A stretch of 64,000 bases of DNA from contig JAWBAK010000001.1 in the NCBI GenBank assembly GCA_038997165.1, positions 32,001 through 96,000 on the forward strand, read 5' to 3'. Of the stretch, positions 24,001-54,000 are shown piece after piece. Within the stretch, counting starts at the first letter, position 1, and every line of letters starts with the position of its first letter. This DNA is from Candidatus Aenigmatarchaeota archaeon. GTDB lineage: Archaea; Aenigmatarchaeota; Aenigmatarchaeia; CG10238-14; SpSt-28. A program made the position numbers.

Positions 24001-27000
24001 TCTTTTCTAATAATATTTTTCCTTTTGGGTATTCAAGAAATTTCAATAAAAAGAATTAGTACTGAAAGAGATATAGAATTTATATTAAATACTTTAGAAT
24101 TTATAAAAAGCGATTTATTAAATTTTATTGAAATATCTATTCCAAGAATTTTGAATTCTATAATAAGCTATGAAATTGAAAATGGTATTTTTGTTAATGA
24201 TGTGAAAAATACAATAAAAAATGCATTTTTTTATTCAATTTTTTTAGATGAAAATTATCTTATCAAAAATTCCTCTTTAATTGATTATGAAAAAAGAATA
24301 AATTCTTTTTTAAATAAATATGGCTTTAATATTTCTATTTTTCCAATAAATTTTGATGTTTTTCATTATACTTCTTTTAAAATTTATGTTAATACAACTT
24401 TAATGATTAACATATCTTATAAAAATAAGTTTATTTCTTCAATAGAAAAATTTGAAAAAAATATTTCAATAATAAATTTTGAAGACCCATTTTATATAAT
24501 AAATTCTAATGGTTTAGCAACAAATTTTATAAAAACTAAAAATTTTGATTTTTTTGTTAGAAAAGATGTTATAGGAAATGGAAGCGGAATTGCAATGGCT
24601 AAATCAATTATTTTCTTTGATAAAAATTCGATATTAAATTTAGATAATAAACAAAATTATATTTTAGTAACTAATAATGATTCAGAAATTATTAATATAA
24701 TAAATCAATTTGCAGGTATTATATTAGAAAAAAATTCTACTATAATTAATATTCCACATGTAATTGGAAATATTTCAAACGTTTTAAATAATACTTATTA
24801 TTTAATTAAAAATGGTAAAGCTTATAATGTTGAAAATTTAAAGTATGCATTAGAAAATCAGCTTTGTTTTAGTAGCTCAGAAGGTGCAACATTTTTAGAT
24901 AGATTAGAAGGAAGAAATAGAAATAGCAATAAATATAATTTAACAGCCTTTGATGGAATTGAATGTTTTGTTAATAAAGAATATTTAGCTTTAAGCGGTT
25001 TAAATGTTTATACTAATAAAACAAATATTGACTATATTTATTTTTCTTTTGAAAATCCAAAAAGTTATAAAGTTTCTGGTTTTAAAAATTTTTATATCGA
25101 TGAAAATCATATATTAAAATATCAGCTAGAAGAAATAATAGAATAAATTTTAATTTATGGAACTAAAAAAGATTTTAATTTCTTTATTTTTAACGTTTTT
25201 TGTTATTTTTCTATCTTATTTAACTTCTAAATCTATAGTTCAAATAGCAAAGATAGAAAAAAATATAGATAATAAAACCAACGAAAATATAAATATTAGT
25301 AATATTATTTCTGAAGAAAAAAACGAAAGCAAAAATATTATAAATATAAATAATGAAAGTTTTGAAAATAAAACAGAAAAAGAAATTTTTATAGAAAAAA
25401 TAGAAAAAAATAAAGATATTTCTTATGAAAATAATAAAATAAAAATTGTTAATTATACTAAATTTGAAGAAGCCTATATATATGATATTTGCTATACAAA
25501 AGAAATTTTAAGCATAGAAGGAAAAAATTTTGTTTGTTTGAATGAAATTCCAAAAAATATAGGAATTTTTGTTGAAGATAGTAATTTAAAAATAATATAT
25601 AATGATATATTAATAAGGGAAGAAAAATTAAGCGATAAAATATTGTTAGGATATGCTTATGCAAAAGATTTTTATGGTGTTGAAGGTGAAATAGAGAAAT
25701 TTTATACTAATTCTACTATAGCTTATATAGAAGATTTTGGTTTAGGGAATATAGAATATTTTGGCTATAAAATTGTTTATGCATACTTTCCAATTTATTT
25801 AAATTCTATATATATTAAAAATGAAACAATACATATTTTTGTTAAAACTTCTATGAAAGATTATCTTATTTCCTCTATAAATATCGACAAAAAATAATTA
25901 TCTAAACATTTTATTTTAAAATCGACAGTTAAGATAAATTTTTAAATTATATTTTATTTAAAATTTTTTTCTAGTTTTTTGTTCATAAGTTCGACAAAAA
26001 CTTTACTCGAATATTAAAATATAGTGGTTTCAGATTATAATTAATTTTAGTAGTATAATATGTTATTTAACATAAAAGTAAAGCTACAAACAGCAAGTAT
26101 TTTTAGTATAGCTCTATTTCTACTATCTATTTTAGGATATTTAAATTATACTGGATTCTTTGTATTAGAAAATGATATAAACATTTCTGCAGAAATTACA
26201 AATAATTGTGCTGGGGAAGAAAGTACTATAAGAATTTTGTTTGAAAAAGAAATAAATGAAGTAGAAATAAGTTTTTTAAATTTTACAGAGATTTGTTATA
26301 ATTGCAAATATTTTGAGAAAAATATTTTATTACCTGAAGATGAAAAAATAGAAATTAAAGTAAAGTATGAAAATAATGAAAAGTTTTTTGAATTTCCGAT
26401 TTATAAAAAAGAGTTTAGCTTTGAAGTTAATGTTTCAGAAAATATTTTAAAAGTTTTTGGAGAGGCAAAATGCTATAATAGCTTAAATTTAAAAATATAT
26501 TTTGAAAATGAAACAATAAAAGAAAATTATTTAGAAGTTAAAGATGGAAAGTTTTATTTTGAAACTTATTTAGAAAAGGCTGGAAAGTATAATATCGAAA
26601 TTGAAAACATTTCTAAGGAAATTGAATTAAAGCCAAAAATAAAAATAGAAAAAATAGAATTTCCGCAAGAAATTTTTGAGGATTTTGAAATAAAAGTTTA
26701 TGTTAAAGCTTTGTATGGAAATATTTTAAATGCAAGCATTACTCTAAAAAATGTAGAAGAGAATTTTATTTTTAGCGAACCATTGCAAAAAGTTATAGAA
26801 GAGATTAATGAAAATGAGTTCGCAATAATTTCTTGGAATTTAAAAGCTAAAAATTGTGGAAATTATAGCTTAGAGGTTTTTGCTGAAAGTTCTGAAAGTT
26901 ATGATTATAAAAAGATTGATTTGCTAGTTAAATGTTTGGAAAATATTACAAAACAAAATATTAATCTAAATGCTTTTCTCCTTATAGAAAATGTTACTAA

Positions 27001-51000: not shown

Positions 51001-54000
51001 TTTTGATGTTAGGCCGCTAATTTTCTTTAGTGGTATTGCAAAAGATGAAGAAAGCATAGATTATGTTCCATTAAACGTTACTTTCGAATTATATCCAGCA
51101 GGAAGGTATGAAATGTTATACAGAATAGTTCCTGACGAAGAAGGATATTATAATGAAACAATAGAAGCGATGTATTACGATATTGTATATAAATTCTTTA
51201 ATGAAAGCTTAGTAATCTCTAATATTGGATTGTTTGATGATGTATTTAATCCGATAGTATTAGGAATACCGAGAGAAGTTATTTTACCAAGAGAAGCAAT
51301 TAAAGGTTATGTTTTAGATAGTATTCTTAAATCATCCTCTACCTTAATATTCGATATAAGCAATTTAGATGCTAGAAAGCATGATTTAAGATTATTAGGA
51401 ATTTATCATTGCGCAAACTGGACAAGATATATTGGCTGCAATTCAACTTGGATTAGACTAAACTCTATAGTTTCTTTACAAAGCTTAAAAGTTTATGCAA
51501 CAAACATAAGCGAAATTAAGGGTGCGTATATTTTAGCTCAATATGTTTGTGGAAATGGAATATGTGAAGATAGATTTGGTGAAAGTAATGCAATTTGTCC
51601 ATTAGATTGTCCAGCTGCTGGAGCTCCAGGAATTCCAGCTCCAGGAATTGGAGCACCTGGAATAGGGGCTGGAGTAGGAATTCCTGCAGTTCCAGCTGCT
51701 CCTGGAGTAGGAATAGGAGTTGGTGCTGGTGCACCAACAATAACCATTCCACCCTATGAAATATTTACTAAGGAAATTAGTGTAACATTAAAGCCAAAAG
51801 AACATATAATTGTAAGTGTTGATATAGGAAACAATAGAAATAAAGATATTAAAGTAAAGTTTAAGCCAGAAGGATTAATTTGGGAATTTGTTCAATTAGA
51901 AGCAAACGAAATTGAAATTAAAGCAAGTCAAAGAGGCACGATAAAAATGAAAATATTTGCTCCAGAAGAAAAAATGCCAGGAATCTATACAGGAGATTTG
52001 GTTGTTTATATTGAAAATGAAACATATAGAATTCCAGTAACAATTAAAATAGAGTTACCACCAGAACCTTTGCTTGACGTAATAATAAATGTATTAAGAA
52101 AAACAATAGAACCCAACGAAACTTTAAAGGTATTTGTTAGAGTAGTCAATATGGGTCAAACAGAAAAAGTAGAAGATATTGTTTTAACTTACATAATAAA
52201 AGATTTATTAACTGGAGAATTATACAATGTTTATAAAGAAACTATAGCTGTAGAGACAGCAACTTCATTTACAAGAGAAATTACCTTACCAGAAGGAATT
52301 AAATTAGATAGAAAATATCTAATAGAGGTTAATGCAAGTTATTGGTATGGAAGAAAATATGCATATGCAGCAGATACTTTTGAAGTAGTTTCATTACCCA
52401 TACCTTTAAAAATACTTAGAAGCCTATTACTAAATCCAGTAACTTATATTGTTACTTTTGGAATTGCACCAACCGCTTATTTAGCTCAAAAAGCACTACA
52501 AGCCTATAAATTAAGAAAATTAAAAGAAAAGAGATATGCATTACCAATAGATTTTGATAAATTACCAAAAGCAGGTCCTAATAGTATTGAAGTTGGAAAA
52601 ATTGCAGAAACGGATGTAAAGGCATATTTTGATATGAAGCAATTAATAATGCATACTATTGCAGCTGGTGGTACTGGAAGTGGTAAAACTATAAGTGCTA
52701 TGGTTGTTGCAGAAGAATTATTAAAAAGAAATATTCCAGTAATAGTTTTTGATCCTACAGCACAATGGACTGGCTTCATAAAACCAAATAAAGATCCTAC
52801 TATGCAAGCCTTTTATAAACAATTTGGATTAAAACCAGAAGATGCTAGAGGATTCAAAACAAATATAATTGTTGTAGAAGATGTGGATATGCCACTAGAT
52901 ATTAAAAAGTATATGAATCCAGGAGAAATAACTGTTTTTGTATTAAATAGATTAAAAGCAGATGAATTAGATAAATTTATTAGAAGAAGTATTGAAGCTG
53001 TTTTTGAAATGAAACCACCAGAATCGAAAGAACTCAAACTATTATTAATATACGATGAAATTCATAGAACTTTACCAAAATATGGAGGTAAAGGTGGTTA
53101 TATAGCTATTGAAAGGGGAGCAAGAGAATTTAGAAAATGGGGAATTGGATTATTCTTAATATCTCAAGTATTGTTAGACTTTAAAGGAGCAATTAGAGCA
53201 AATGTTGCTACAGAAATTCAATTAAGAACAAAATATGAAGGAGATATAAATAGAGTAAAGCAAAAATATGGAACAGATTATGCAAGCAAAGTTACTAAAT
53301 TGACAATTGGTACTGGAATTGTTCAAAATCCTGAATATAACAATGGTAAGCCTTGGATAATTCAATTTAGACCTATTTTACATTCAACTTTCGCATTATC
53401 AAAAGAAGAGCTAGATACTTATATGAATTTAAGAAAGAAGTTGGAAGCATTTGAAAAAGAAGTTGAAAATCTTAAGGCAAGAGGAATTGATACTTTCGAT
53501 ATAGAAAATGAAATAAAACTTGCTTGGGATAGATTGAAGCAAGGAATGTTTAGAATGGTTGAAACATATATTGAAAGTATTGAAACAAATCTCAAACGTT
53601 ATAAATAATTATGAAAGAAGAATTATTAAAACAAAAAAAAGAGATTGAAGATTTATTAAATGAAATTGAAAATAGTTATAGAAAAGGTGAAATAAGTGAA
53701 GAATCCTACAAAGAAATTATTGAAGAAAATAAGAAAAAATTGGAAGAAATAGAAAAGAAATTAAAAGAAATAGGAGAAAAAAGAGAGGAGAAAAAAGAGA
53801 AAAAAAGTAGAATAGAAGAAATTATTGAAAGAGTCTTTAAAGTAGAGAAAGAAGTTTCTTCAAAAGAAATTAAAAAGGTTCAAGAAGATTTATCAAAAGT
53901 TAGTGTAGAATTAGAAAAAACAAAAGCATTGATCGATACACTTAAAGAAATGAAACAAACAACAGATGAAAAAATTATAAGAATTACAGAAAATATTGGT

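What a model noticed while it worked through the whole genome (the two positions that open the first line are those of the whole stretch)
26060..53608. 9,182-residue surface protein ending in a cytoplasmic HerA/FtsK-type ATPase, with a 3,109-residue paralogue
g00072 takes 27.5 kb (4.2% of the genome). It has an N-terminal signal anchor, an ectodomain of about 8,770 residues (divergent repeats between about 1,560 and 8,080), one transmembrane helix (about 8,785-8,808, followed by a Lys/Arg-rich stretch) and a 370-residue cytoplasmic P-loop ATPase of the HerA/FtsK/TrwB superfamily. g00426 (C1:409425-418754) has the same ending (41% identity over 600 aa) on a shorter ectodomain. The ATPase module with a preceding TM helix and variable ectodomains is widespread in DPANN and a few other archaea: a family of 'outside giant - inside motor' proteins. 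A pumping ATPase tied to a huge surface protein suggests transport of DNA or protein at the contact with [...]
Evidence so far: genes.tsv; Pfam DUF87 at 8843-8901 and HerA_C, TrwB_AAD_bind, FtsK_SpoIIIE below cut-off; hydropathy and blastp of the two tails; internal repeats. 551 proteins of 981-2800 aa with E<=1e-3 to the 560-aa tail of g00426 among 7998 scored, best 120 at 44-99% identity, source names from Aenigmat-, Pace-, Woese-, Nano-, Micr-, Nanohal-, Alti- and Hadarchaeota, many with Ig-like or CarboxypepD_reg domains. PDB: weak matches to HerA (8wiv E 1.4e-6) and DotL/IcmO coupling protein. Both genes neighbour paralogous coiled-coil proteins g00073/g00428 (30%, call 42) and ParA and HTH genes.
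(Added by a program. Inside this text positions count along the whole contig: contig position 32,001 is position 1 of the stretch shown here. "Call 12" and the like, gene names such as g00115 and contig names such as C1 are that model's own, and its searches are not shown. The text may have been shortened before it was handed on; [...] marks where a part breaks off. The agent that wrote the report below was given it as the finding of a first reader that could run no searches.)

Follow-up and report, generated by a model that had tools for sequence, protein, structure and literature searches.

The report
Giant SPEARE-type surface protein, ATPase-anchored
A tiny symbiotic (DPANN) archaeon spends 4% of its genome on one 9,182-residue sugar-coated surface fibre that ends inside the cell in a ring-type ATP motor; this design is real but was already published as the 'SPEARE' proteins, and what the motor does is still unknown.

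Summary
Window 26060-53608 (+) is one uninterrupted 9,182-codon gene, 4.23% of a 651,930-bp genome. It encodes an N-terminal hydrophobic anchor, about 8,750 extracellular residues of Ig/MG-like beta-sandwiches, one TM helix, and a 370-residue HerA/VirB4-like P-loop ATPase with a helical tip. The 3,109-aa paralogue and the coiled-coil and MinD/ParA-like neighbours are also real.

The family is not new. The tail is 46% identical (E 5e-120) to AOV94739.1, which PMC6642349 (2019) lists as a SPEARE protein. [quoted passage not shown] Earlier follow-ups of this scan reached the same verdict on other genomes.

What I add:
- Independent metagenomes support the assembly.
- The ectodomain carries 2.6 times the sequons expected by chance.
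- The ectodomain diverges faster than the motor (53-74% versus 88-92% identity to the same-genus orthologue).
- There is a fixed cassette. The coiled-coil partner co-occurs with the ATPase in 73 of 76 carrier genomes and in 0 of 75 non-carriers. A roughly 1,950-aa membrane glycoprotein co-occurs in 55 of 76 carriers and 3 of 75 non-carriers.

Function (polymer translocation at the host contact) remains inference. Verdict: new member of a known kind.

The parts
26060..53608 (+). Whole gene, 9,182 codons plus stop: a SPEARE-type giant surface protein
   Evidence: open-frame probability; independent contigs
26078..26167 (+). N-terminal hydrophobic segment (residues 7-36). It is a signal peptide or a signal anchor; whether it is cleaved is not known.
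   Evidence: Kyte-Doolittle maximum 1.86
30785..32359 (+). First block of the ~324-aa super-repeat (residues 1576-2100)
   Evidence: self-BLAST of 150-aa slices
34835..46534 (+). Main block of 12 copies of the ~324-aa super-repeat (residues 2926-6825). Each copy is three Ig/MG-like beta-sandwiches with a conserved GWGE motif and Cys pairs.
   Evidence: AF2 pLDDT 90.6; Foldseek matches to complement MG domains, phage Hoc and a 1.5-MDa ice-binding adhesin
51542..51739 (+). Membrane-proximal Cys-rich knob (residues 8495-8518) followed by a Gly/Ala/Pro-rich linker (8519-8560)
   Evidence: sequence as printed
52412..52483 (+). Single transmembrane helix (residues about 8785-8808), followed by a Lys/Arg-rich stretch
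   Evidence: KD 1.48; conserved in 208 of 218 relatives; AF2 helix
52517..53404 (+). Cytoplasmic RecA-like P-loop ATPase core (residues 8820-9115) of the HerA/VirB4 branch of the FtsK-HerA superfamily
52667..52690 (+). Walker A motif GGTGSGKT (residues 8870-8877)
   Evidence: G90, T92, G93, G95 and K96 are invariant in alignment A1 of 36 sequences
53039..53068 (+). Walker B motif LLLIYDEIHR (residues 8994-9003)
   Evidence: D219, E220, H222 and R223 are invariant
53111..53167 (+). Motif ERGAREFRKWGIGLFLISQ (residues 9018-9036). It aligns with the AREGRKFGVGL..SQ motif of HerA and holds the candidate arginine finger.
   Evidence: invariant columns; phmmer alignment to HerA
53402..53605 (+). C-terminal three-helix tip (residues 9115-9182) with a conserved GxDxFDxE motif
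   Evidence: AF2 helices 335-360, 366-380 and 384-401; conserved columns; motif duplicated in the paralogue's C-terminal extension
53611..54843 (+). Partner 1: a 410-aa cytoplasmic coiled-coil protein with no TM helix and no Cys, and with SHOCT-like GxISxEEY motifs at both ends
   Evidence: homologue in 78 of 80 related loci, and the first downstream ORF in 63 of 80; co-occurrence 73/76 versus 0/75
54840..60566 (+). Partner 2: a 1,908-aa membrane glycoprotein. It has an N-terminal hydrophobic segment, 83 sequons, a TM helix at 1815-1845 and a short cytoplasmic coiled-coil tail with a SHOCT-like motif.
   Evidence: full-length homologues of 1,911-2,103 aa in 53 of 80 loci; co-occurrence 55/76 versus 3/75
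60600..61367 (+). Partner 3: a 255-aa MinD/ParA-like ATPase (archaeal MinD subfamily model, 151.8 bits, below its cut-off of 201.75)
   Evidence: present in 28 of 80 related loci
61380..61607 (+). Small 75-aa single-TM protein that follows the MinD-like gene. ORFs of 87-91 aa stand at the same place in several related loci.
   Evidence: position only; a BLAST match only in L001

Best explanation
This is a SPEARE-type giant surface protein of a DPANN (Aenigmatarchaeota-like) archaeon.

Shown here:
- The polypeptide is exported through an N-terminal hydrophobic segment.
- It displays about 8,750 heavily sequon-rich residues outside the cell, built of roughly 80 Ig/MG-like beta-sandwich domains.
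- It crosses the membrane once.
- It ends in the cytoplasm in an intact HerA/VirB4-like P-loop ATPase with a conserved helical tip.
- It belongs to a fixed gene cassette with a cytoplasmic coiled-coil protein, a ~1,950-aa membrane glycoprotein and, often, a MinD-like ATPase.

Inferred:
- The ATPase assembles into a ring at the inner face of the membrane, as its solved relatives do. Several fibres would then leave one motor.
- The fast-evolving fibre binds the host cell.
- The motor, together with the cassette partners and placed by the MinD-like ATPase, drives a polymer (DNA or protein) across the symbiont membrane at the contact site.

My odds: architecture and family membership about 0.95; the cassette acting as one apparatus about 0.6; polymer translocation at the host contact about 0.35-0.4.
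For: Gene and topology:
- The frame is open.
- The ectodomain has 312 N-X-S/T sequons against 119.6 +/- 9.4 in composition-preserving shuffles. All 132 Cys lie before the TM helix.
- The TM helix is kept in 208 of 218 relatives.

Motor:
- Walker A, Walker B, the FDPTxQW motif and the REFRKWG motif are invariant in 36 sequences.
- AF2 gives pLDDT 92.7 and pTM 0.89.

Family:
- 46% identity, E 5e-120, to AOV94739.1, listed as SPEARE in PMC6642349.
- 41% identity, including the TM helix, to WEL19326.1 of strain SVXNc.
- The architecture matches section 11 of PMC10266531 point by point.

Cassette:
- The coiled-coil partner is in 78 of 80 loci and is the first downstream ORF in 63 of 80.
- Across 151 genomes of the phylum: both 73, tail only 3, partner only 0, neither 75.
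- For the 1,950-aa partner: both 55, tail only 21, partner only 3, neither 72.

Host-facing role:
- Identity to the same-genus orthologue is 53-74% in the ectodomain and 88-92% in the tail.
- The gene is present in only 76 of 151 genomes of the phylum, so it is accessory rather than housekeeping.

The best partial NCBIfam match is the DNA-import ATPase CedD (E 1.5e-11, but 43.7 bits against a cut-off of 600).
Against: - No experiment or expression data bear on this gene.
- One TM helix per protomer cannot by itself form a conduit, and the conserved cassette holds no polytopic membrane protein.
- No relaxase, nuclease, DNA-binding domain or recognisable substrate is encoded nearby.
- The closest solved folds (HerA-NurA, SIR2-HerA, DUF4297-HerA) are soluble DNA-processing or defence ATPases, not secretion motors.
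- The genome lacks a VirB4 N-terminal domain (PF03135) at 94.5% completeness.
- The relatives counted are kin, so the co-occurrence figures overstate independent support.
Confidence: 0.5

Rival explanations
1. Mechanical or anchoring motor. The ATPase ring moves nothing across the membrane. It serves as an ATP-regulated hub that bundles several fibres and, through its helical tip and the coiled-coil partner, transmits force or conformational change to the fibre (tensioning, retraction, inside-out signalling).
For: - There is only one TM helix per protomer and no channel protein in the cassette.
- An obligate, purely cytoplasmic coiled-coil partner accompanies every copy.
- The helical tip is conserved.
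- SHOCT-like motifs link the coiled-coil protein and the cytoplasmic tail of the 1,950-aa partner by sequence pattern.
Against: To my knowledge, no member of the FtsK-HerA superfamily acts without threading a polymer. There is no structural or biochemical support.
Confidence: 0.22
2. Effector 'straw', the printed hypothesis of PMC10266531. The giant protein is part of a type IV-like secretion system that injects effectors into the host.
For: - Weak Pfam and NCBIfam matches to TrwB_AAD_bind, TraD and TraC occur in the tail or its relatives.
- In relatives from the phylum of the record titled Nanohalarchaeota, a second family ATPase follows the giant gene.
Against: - No other T4SS component is present here, and PF03135 is not found in the genome.
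- The second ATPase of L104 and L105 also lacks PF03135 at E <= 0.01.
- A string of beta-sandwich domains does not form a tube.
- This rival overlaps with the best explanation (protein as the translocated polymer).
Confidence: 0.12
3. Cell-envelope scaffold. The giant protein and the 1,950-aa partner are S-layer-like coat or tether proteins, and the ATPase serves their assembly or turnover.
For: - Both are heavily sequon-rich type-I membrane proteins.
- The partner has an extracellular coiled-coil stalk before its TM helix, like some archaeal S-layer anchors (the comparison is recalled).
Against: - The gene was not found in 75 of 151 genomes of the phylum, including 45 of 90 high-quality ones and 0 of 8 in genus g8.
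- The ectodomain evolves fast and varies from about 200 to over 14,000 aa.
Confidence: 0.1
4. Restriction-endonuclease tail (the original SPEARE reading of PMC6642349). The cytoplasmic domain degrades imported DNA.
For: Pfam ResIII matches the paralogue's tail at 31 bits against a cut-off of 22.5. It also appears in the precomputed Pfam lists of many relatives.
Against: ResIII is the helicase/ATPase module of those enzymes, not a nuclease. The whole tail folds as a HerA-like RecA core plus helices, and no nuclease domain is present. PMC10266531 reached the same conclusion.
Confidence: 0.03
5. Artefact: a mis-assembled repeat array or a chimera of an adhesin gene and an ATPase gene.
For: The gene is very long and repetitive, and the genome is a 4-contig assembly with N gaps elsewhere.
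Against: - Repeats are only 21-40% identical at protein level, and the longest exact DNA repeat is 47 nt.
- Four independent runs tile the last 20 kb collinearly, with no joints and only in-frame indels.
- A same-genus genome has a collinear 9,015-aa open frame.
- Hundreds of relatives share the fusion.
Confidence: 0.01

Closest known systems
SPEARE proteins / 'giant membrane-anchored extracellular proteins' of Nanohaloarchaeota (PMC6642349, 2019; PMC10266531, 2023)
   Same: - The architecture is the same: N-terminal export signal, thousands of extracellular residues of tandem Ig-like domains, one TM helix near the C-terminus, a conserved cytoplasmic P-loop ATPase and a helical/coiled-coil tip.
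- The tail is 46% identical to AOV94739.1 (SG9) and 41-45% identical to the SVXNc and BNXNv proteins.
- The same misleading ResIII Pfam match occurs.
- The family is spread over Aenigmat-, Woese-, Micr-, Alti- and Nanohal-archaeota.
   Different: - The host phylum differs (nearest records are titled Aenigmatarchaeota).
- No laminin-G domain was found by Pfam at E <= 0.01.
- The gene immediately downstream is a coiled-coil protein, not a second ATPase.
- The named proteins I could align are the ~625-aa short members, not the giant ones.
- The cassette of coiled-coil protein, 1,950-aa partner and MinD-like ATPase is not mentioned in the passages I read.
HerA (archaeal/bacterial DNA translocase; PDB 4D2I, 9X1M; Pfam DUF87)
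   Different: - There is no HAS-barrel. A TM helix and one long helix stand in its place.
- There is no NurA neighbour.
- The genome has its own canonical NurA-HerA pair elsewhere.
- The NCBIfam HerA models score 25-31 bits against cut-offs of 800-970.
- This protein is membrane-tethered.
Membrane-anchored FtsK-HerA-superfamily translocases: VirD4/TrwB coupling proteins, FtsK/SpoIIIE, EssC/EccC (type VII), CedB/CedD (archaeal DNA import)
   Different: - All family-model scores are far below their cut-offs.
- There is one TM helix instead of two to five.
- The extracellular part is thousands of residues long instead of a short loop.
- None of their partner proteins is present.
Giant bead-on-a-string adhesins (for example the 1.5-MDa ice-binding adhesin, PDB 5IRB/4P99; halomucin as cited in PMC6642349)
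   Same: Tandem Ig-like extender domains match by Foldseek at E 1e-9. The proteins are of megadalton size and lie on the cell surface.
   Different: To my knowledge those adhesins have no cytoplasmic ATPase and are anchored differently. The fold match is generic to beta-sandwich arrays.

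Membership tests
SPEARE / giant membrane-anchored extracellular proteins | Most of a very long protein lies outside the cytoplasm, with one TM helix near the C-terminus and a cytoplasmic C-terminal region | tested here: met
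   - Hydropathy.
- 312 sequons against 119.6 +/- 9.4 expected, and all 132 Cys before the TM helix.
- TM helix kept in 208 of 218 relatives.
SPEARE / giant membrane-anchored extracellular proteins | The conserved intracellular portion is homologous to that of named SPEARE proteins | tested here: met
   - 46% identity (169/365), E 5e-120, to AOV94739.1 (AQV86_02330, SG9). That accession is named in the Fig. 7 legend of PMC6642349.
- Caveat: the legend gives 3,315 aa, whereas the record held here has 625 aa.
- The giant named members could not be retrieved.
SPEARE / giant membrane-anchored extracellular proteins | 'VirB4/TraG-like' P-loop ATPase followed by a coiled-coil tip (PMC10266531) | tested here: met
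   - AF2 model.
- 41% identity to WEL19326.1, 'VirB4/TraG-like ATPase / HerA helicase' of SVXNc.
SPEARE / giant membrane-anchored extracellular proteins | The bulk of the ectodomain is tandem Ig-like domains | tested here: met
   The repeat unit folds as three beta-sandwiches (pLDDT 90.6). Foldseek matches MG and Ig arrays. Weak Pfam matches to Big_7, Big_1, MG2, Filamin and NPCBM_assoc occur.
SPEARE / giant membrane-anchored extracellular proteins | At least one laminin-G domain in the ectodomain (PMC6642349) | tested here: not met
   No Laminin_G family appeared at E <= 0.01 in three overlapping pieces of the protein. Many relatives do carry PF13385 or PF02210. Only Pfam was tried, so a divergent domain could be missed.
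SPEARE / giant membrane-anchored extracellular proteins | A second VirB4/TraG-family ATPase encoded immediately downstream (PMC10266531) | tested here: not met
   - Here the downstream gene is a coiled-coil protein.
- PF03135 was not found in the genome.
- The tandem arrangement does occur in relatives L104-L106.
HerA (DUF87, NurA partner) | Full-length DUF87 core with an N-terminal HAS-barrel, and a score above the HerA equivalog cut-offs | tested here: not met
   - DUF87 covers only profile positions 1-62 of 220.
- No HAS-barrel is present.
- NCBIfam HerA models score 25-31 bits against cut-offs of 800-970.
HerA (DUF87, NurA partner) | Adjacent NurA nuclease gene | tested here: not met
   The neighbours are a coiled-coil protein, a surface protein and a MinD-like ATPase. 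The canonical NurA-HerA pair lies at C1:~167,900-170,200.
VirB4 / type IV secretion ATPase | N-terminal CagE_TrbE_VirB domain (PF03135) and T4SS partner genes | tested here: not met
   PF03135 gave 0 matches in the genome at E <= 0.1. TraC scores 14.3 bits against a cut-off of 567.
VirD4/TraG/TrwB coupling protein | A score above the family cut-offs (TrwB_AAD_bind, T4SS-DNA_transf, TraD) | tested here: not met
   - The only match is TraD, at 22.3 bits against a cut-off of 366.
- No TrwB_AAD_bind or T4SS-DNA_transf match was reported for this protein at E <= 0.01.
CedB/CedD archaeal DNA-import ATPases | A score above the equivalog cut-off | tested here: not met
   CedD scores 43.7 bits against 600, over 66 residues around Walker A only. 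CedB scores 21.4 against 700.
FtsK-HerA superfamily of ring translocases | RecA-like core with Walker A, Walker B and an arginine-finger motif, and assembly into a hexamer | tested here: inconclusive
   The motifs and the fold are met. Oligomeric state was not tested.

The most novel reading that the evidence does not exclude
The fixed cassette would be an undescribed DPANN cell-to-cell translocation apparatus, analogous to type IV/VII secretion or Ced DNA import but not homologous to them. The cassette consists of the ATPase-anchored fibre, an obligate cytoplasmic coiled-coil partner, a ~1,950-aa membrane glycoprotein whose cytoplasmic tail shares SHOCT-like motifs with the coiled-coil protein, and a MinD-like positioning ATPase. 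Through it the symbiont would take DNA or protein from its host, or deliver them to it.
Probability: 0.25. Interest if true: 0.8.

Novelty: new member of a known kind. Interest (0 to 1): 0.42.

Why it matters
DPANN archaea depend on physical contact with host cells, and how material crosses that contact is an open question. SPEARE-type proteins are the most conspicuous candidates, yet no function has been tested.

This locus adds four things:
- A well-supported, intact thermophile-habitat member.
- Evidence that the fibre evolves several times faster than its motor.
- A quantified statement that the motor essentially never occurs without its coiled-coil partner, and usually occurs with a conserved ~1,950-aa membrane protein.
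- A short, compact cytoplasmic module (about 360 residues) plus partner that could be expressed and assayed.

It does not by itself change what is known about the family.

Tried and rejected
Searches for the named giant SPEARE proteins:
- Searches (31 hits of 525 scored, 5,050-16,069 aa; 79 of 1,860, 4,057-12,912 aa) listed none of the published names. The link came only from the short members.
- The supplement of PMC6642349 (Table S3, Fig. S17) could not be read, so I could not compare its list of Aenigmarchaeota relatives with mine.
- Ten genomes of the phylum of G001 with only weak matches hold no giant DUF87 frame. This was uninformative.

Complex prediction: the job for the cytoplasmic tail (A1, residues 40-402) with the coiled-coil partner (A3) returned 'no answer' (score 0.00 against a mark of 0.32) and no controls were run. 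This is no evidence either way.

Expression: no RNA holder was listed among 22 runs.

Partner proteins:
- A profile of the coiled-coil family found only generic coiled coils in the PDB (best E 0.011).
- The ESM Atlas gave only unnamed DPANN clusters for the coiled-coil protein.
- The ESM Atlas gave nothing usable for the N-terminal domain of the 1,908-aa partner.
- A SHOCT-like motif was sought in the last 140 aa of 220 ATPase-bearing relatives and found in 0 of 220.

Other checks:
- PF03135 was not found in the own genome or in the 551-aa second ATPases.
- The two 410-aa proteins flanking the giant gene are not paralogues by BLAST at 1e-4.
- The 1,902-aa protein at 5945-11653 is not a paralogue of the 1,908-aa partner.

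Literature:
- Leads in PMC6393860 and PMC5898192 (arCOG02884/arCOG02487 'secretion system') concern a different MoxR/vWA system.
- Searches for DPANN + HerA + giant (5 papers), DUF87/DPANN/surface protein, SPEARE + ATPase + DPANN (6 papers) and DPANN + VirB4 + giant (1 paper) turned up no further description. I read only the listings of these, and passages of the papers named in the full report.

Full report
1. THE OBSERVATION

The ORF list gives one frame, 26060..53608 on the + strand, of 9,182 codons without a stop. The window is 17-32% G+C. From its base composition a stop is expected about every 10 codons, so log10 of the chance of 9,182 open codons is about -400. The genome held for this window has 651,930 bases in 4 contigs, and the gene is 4.23% of it.

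- The repeats are only 21-40% identical at protein level.
- The longest exact DNA repeat inside the gene is 47 nt (43675-43721 and 45607-45653).
- Twenty DNA runs of 9 studies, labelled hot springs metagenome, hold the 3' part of the locus or a part of it. One of them may be the source.
- I laid the contigs of four runs from four other studies on window 33609-53608. They covered 29, 30, 30 and 30 of 30 bins at 1-2% divergence, with no joints.
- The only indels were a -1/+1 pair four bases apart and one 3-base deletion, all frame-preserving.
- Not every junction between contigs is bridged in the rows shown.
- A same-genus genome (G108, the genome of L001) carries a collinear 9,015-aa open frame.

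The gene is real and intact.

2. ANATOMY

Export signal and membrane anchor. Residues 7-36 are hydrophobic (KD 1.86). The next credible membrane segment is at 8785-8803 (KD 1.48), followed by KLRKLKEKR. That is weak for a TM helix. However, the equivalent 80-residue window upstream of Walker A holds a 19-mer of KD >= 1.6 in 208 of 218 relatives, with a median of 2.22. AF2 also models it as a helix.

Evidence that the long part lies outside the cell. The stretch between the two segments has 312 N-X-S/T sequons, against 119.6 +/- 9.4 in composition-preserving shuffles, and all 132 cysteines. The tail has none of either. The lack of sequons in the tail is not significant on its own (P about 0.29). 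The enrichment outside the cell is.

Repeats.
- A super-repeat of about 324 aa fills residues 1576-2100 and 2926-6825.
- Twelve copies align at 21-30% identity, with a conserved GWGE motif and Cys pairs.
- With these copies as its alignment, AF2 folds one unit as three beta-sandwiches (pLDDT 90.6, pTM 0.76).
- These resemble complement MG domains, phage Hoc Ig domains and the extender domains of a 1.5-MDa ice-binding adhesin (Foldseek E about 1e-9).
- At about 108 residues per domain the ectodomain would hold roughly 80 such beads (inference).

Membrane-proximal region. Near the membrane lie a Cys-rich knob (8495-8518) and a Gly/Ala/Pro linker (8519-8560).

3. THE CYTOPLASMIC MODULE

Sequence.
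- Pfam gives DUF87 at 8843-8901 (E 1.5e-9, above its cut-off) and HerA_C below its cut-off.
- PDB sequences give HerA (E 7.6e-7).
- In an alignment of 36 family members, Walker A (GTGSGKT), FDPTxQWxG, Walker B (DExHR) and ERxxREFRKWGxG..SQ are invariant.

Structure.
- AF2 gives pLDDT 92.7 and pTM 0.89: a TM helix, a long helix, a RecA-like core and three C-terminal helices.
- Foldseek ranks HerA first (4d2i, E 4e-13).

Family placement.
- There is no HAS-barrel. The genome has its own NurA-HerA pair with a HAS-barrel elsewhere.
- The NCBIfam models for CedD, HerA, TraD, CedB and TraB all score far below their cut-offs.
- The tail is therefore a distinct clade of the HerA/VirB4 branch of the FtsK-HerA superfamily, not a member of any of those families.

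4. THE FAMILY AND ITS NAME

Size of the family.
- The tail alone finds 1,151 cluster representatives at E <= 1e-3 and 368 at <= 1e-30.
- It finds 31 proteins of 5,051-7,878 aa.
The best 80 are mostly titled Aenigmatarchaeota, and also Micr-, Woese-, Nano-, Nanohal-, Parv- and Altiarchaeota.
- In the window's own phylum 76 of 151 sampled genomes carry it (45 of 90 high-quality ones), with open frames of up to 14,526 aa.

The published description.
- Searching papers led to PMC6642349 (passages read). It named 'SPEARE' proteins of Nanohaloarchaeota: mostly extracytoplasmic, with a TM domain toward the C-terminus and a conserved intracellular portion. That portion was read as a type III restriction enzyme. 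Similar sequences were reported in Woese-, Aenigm-, Micrarchaeota and Altiarchaeales.
- It also led to PMC10266531 (section 11 read in full). That paper re-describes them as a signal peptide, about 75 Ig-like domains, a TM helix, a 'VirB4/TraG-like ATPase' and a coiled-coil tip. It reports members of 9,409 and 8,880 aa.

The direct test succeeded late.
- A 551-aa family member from a related genome (L104) retrieved three named proteins: AOV94739.1 (AQV86_02330, SG9), WEL19326.1 ('VirB4/TraG-like ATPase / HerA helicase', SVXNc) and WEL23154.1 (BNXNv).
- The window's tail aligns to them at 46% (E 5e-120), 41% (E 8e-113, including the TM helix) and 45% (E 3e-118).
- AOV94739.1 is an accession that the 2019 paper lists as a SPEARE protein. 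The legend gives it 3,315 aa, whereas the record here has 625 aa. I cannot resolve this mismatch.
- The paralogue's tail also gives the ResIII Pfam match (31 bits) that explains the 'RE' in the name.

Membership is therefore met on architecture and sequence. A laminin-G domain (by Pfam) and a downstream second ATPase are not found here.

5. THE PARALOGUE

- C1:409425-418754 (3,109 aa) shares 33% identity over 1,256 aa with the giant.
- Its frame is open up to an N gap. The ORF before the gap has a beta-helix domain like the ectodomains of relatives, so it is probably longer than annotated.
- In a FastTree of 221 tails (midpoint-rooted; the sample is my own hits and includes partial proteins) the two copies fall in different clades.
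  - The giant sits in a clade of 53 (support 0.79; inner clade of 28, 0.987). All of these end right after the tip.
  - The paralogue sits in a clade of 114 (support 0.995), many with a ~110-aa C-terminal extension. That extension repeats the tip motif.
- A class of about 2,950-3,300 aa recurs across the phylum. The duplication is old.

6. THE CASSETTE

The partners in the window.
- Immediately downstream lies a 410-aa coiled-coil protein with no TM helix and no Cys, and with GxISxEEY (SHOCT-like) motifs at both ends.
- Next comes a 1,908-aa protein with an N-terminal hydrophobic segment, 83 sequons, a TM helix at 1815-1845 and a short cytoplasmic tail carrying the same motif.
- Then come a MinD/ParA-like ATPase and a 75-aa TM protein.

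Synteny in the 80 related loci.
- A homologue of the coiled-coil protein is present in 78. It is the first downstream ORF on the same strand in 63.
- The large partner is present in 53, mostly at 1,911-2,103 aa and about 30% identity over its full length.
- The MinD-like gene is present in 28. Many of the 80 loci are cut by contig ends.

Co-occurrence across the same 151 genomes of the phylum.
- Tail and coiled-coil partner: both 73, tail only 3, partner only 0, neither 75. A partner gene stands next to each tail copy.
- Tail and large partner: both 55, tail only 21, partner only 3, neither 72.
- These genomes are kin, so the counts are descriptive and not a test.

Relatives from the phylum of the record titled Nanohalarchaeota show both arrangements:
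- giant, then coiled coil, then ~1,950-aa partner (L107);
- giant, then short second family ATPase, then coiled coil (L104-L106). This matches the 'second ATPase downstream' of PMC10266531, except that PF03135 is not found.

That paper does not mention MinD, nor a coiled-coil neighbour. I found no description of the cassette in what I read, but my searches were not exhaustive. Earlier follow-ups of this scan had noted the cassette on this and other genomes.

7. HOW IT MOST LIKELY WORKS

Shown:
- an exported, sequon-rich fibre of beta-sandwich beads;
- a single-pass anchor;
- an intact, strongly conserved ring-ATPase fold on the inside;
- an obligate cytoplasmic partner;
- accessory, patchy distribution.

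Also shown: between same-genus orthologues the ectodomain is 53-74% identical per 400-residue bin, while the last 600 residues are 88-92% identical. This is the pattern of a conserved engine behind a diversifying, presumably host-binding, surface.

Inferred from the families:
- The ATPase forms a ring under the membrane, so several fibres emerge from one hub.
- Membrane-tethered members of this superfamily (FtsK/SpoIIIE, VirD4/TrwB, EssC/EccC, CedB/CedD; for the last, the abstract of PMC11868833) move DNA or protein. The likeliest job is therefore polymer translocation at the host contact.
- The MinD-like ATPase would place the apparatus.

Against this:
- There is one TM helix per protomer and no channel protein in the cassette.
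- No substrate, relaxase or nuclease is encoded nearby.
- The nearest folds are soluble DNA-processing ATPases.
- There are no expression data.

A purely mechanical or anchoring role of the ring with its coiled-coil partner is the main rival. An S-layer-like role fits poorly with absence from half of the genomes. The restriction-enzyme reading is contradicted by the fold.

8. VERDICT

The thing is a new, well-supported member of an already described kind, not a new family, and it is not the longest of its kind. The quantified cassette and the compact motor-plus-partner module are the useful additions. The function of SPEARE-type proteins remains the open question.

Noticed in passing
window 17685-25897: A type IV pilus-like locus lies directly upstream of the giant gene.
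- TadC-like (T2SSF) and FlaI/PilB-like (T2SSE) genes sit on the - strand, with a CBS+wHTH regulator.
- Six + strand ORFs (128, 131, 158, 659, 410 and 246 aa) follow. Each starts with a hydrophobic segment.
- Several of these N-termini look like class III (prepilin) signals by eye (for example ..KIQ/SALEYL.., ..KNQ/FSLEYF..).
- The association with the giant gene is not conserved: it is seen in 1 of 80 related loci, L027.
   Followed up: partly
window 5945-11653: Another large secreted glycoprotein (1,902 aa, N-terminal hydrophobic segment, 85 sequons, 31 Cys, no Pfam match at E <= 0.01). One domain is 39% identical over 97 aa to giant residues 6809-6904. It is not a paralogue of the 1,908-aa partner.
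   Followed up: partly
G000:C1:407314-409425 (L103:2314-4425): The 3,109-aa paralogue starts at a TTG just after an N gap (C1:408821-408916). Its frame is open back to the gap. The 553-aa ORF before the gap carries a right-handed beta-helix domain. The two are probably one gene of about 3,800 aa split by the gap.
   Followed up: partly
window 61585-63998: Two further coiled-coil ORFs (633 aa, and at least 172 aa running off the window) follow the cassette. The 633-aa one has a homologue only in the nearest relative, L001.
   Followed up: partly
L082 (G000:C1:279900-283568): A third kind of DUF87 ATPase (426 aa, 66 bits) is encoded next to a TatD-family DNase. It is unrelated to the giant's cassette.
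   Followed up: no
PMC6642349 Fig. 7 legend versus protein P0313: The paper lists AOV94739.1 / AQV86_02330 as a 3,315-aa SPEARE protein. The record under that accession in the protein collection has 625 aa. Either the legend's tags are swapped or the record was revised.
   Followed up: no
L104, L105, L106 (G012:C25, G007:C28, G035:C8): In some relatives two family ATPase genes stand in tandem (a giant or long one, then a 551-aa or 1,393-aa one) before a single coiled-coil partner gene.
   Followed up: partly
window 43675-43721 and 45607-45653: This is the only exact DNA repeat over 40 nt in the gene (47 nt, encoding the GGWGETFTFS motif of two repeat units). Contigs of independent runs break near it.
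   Followed up: yes
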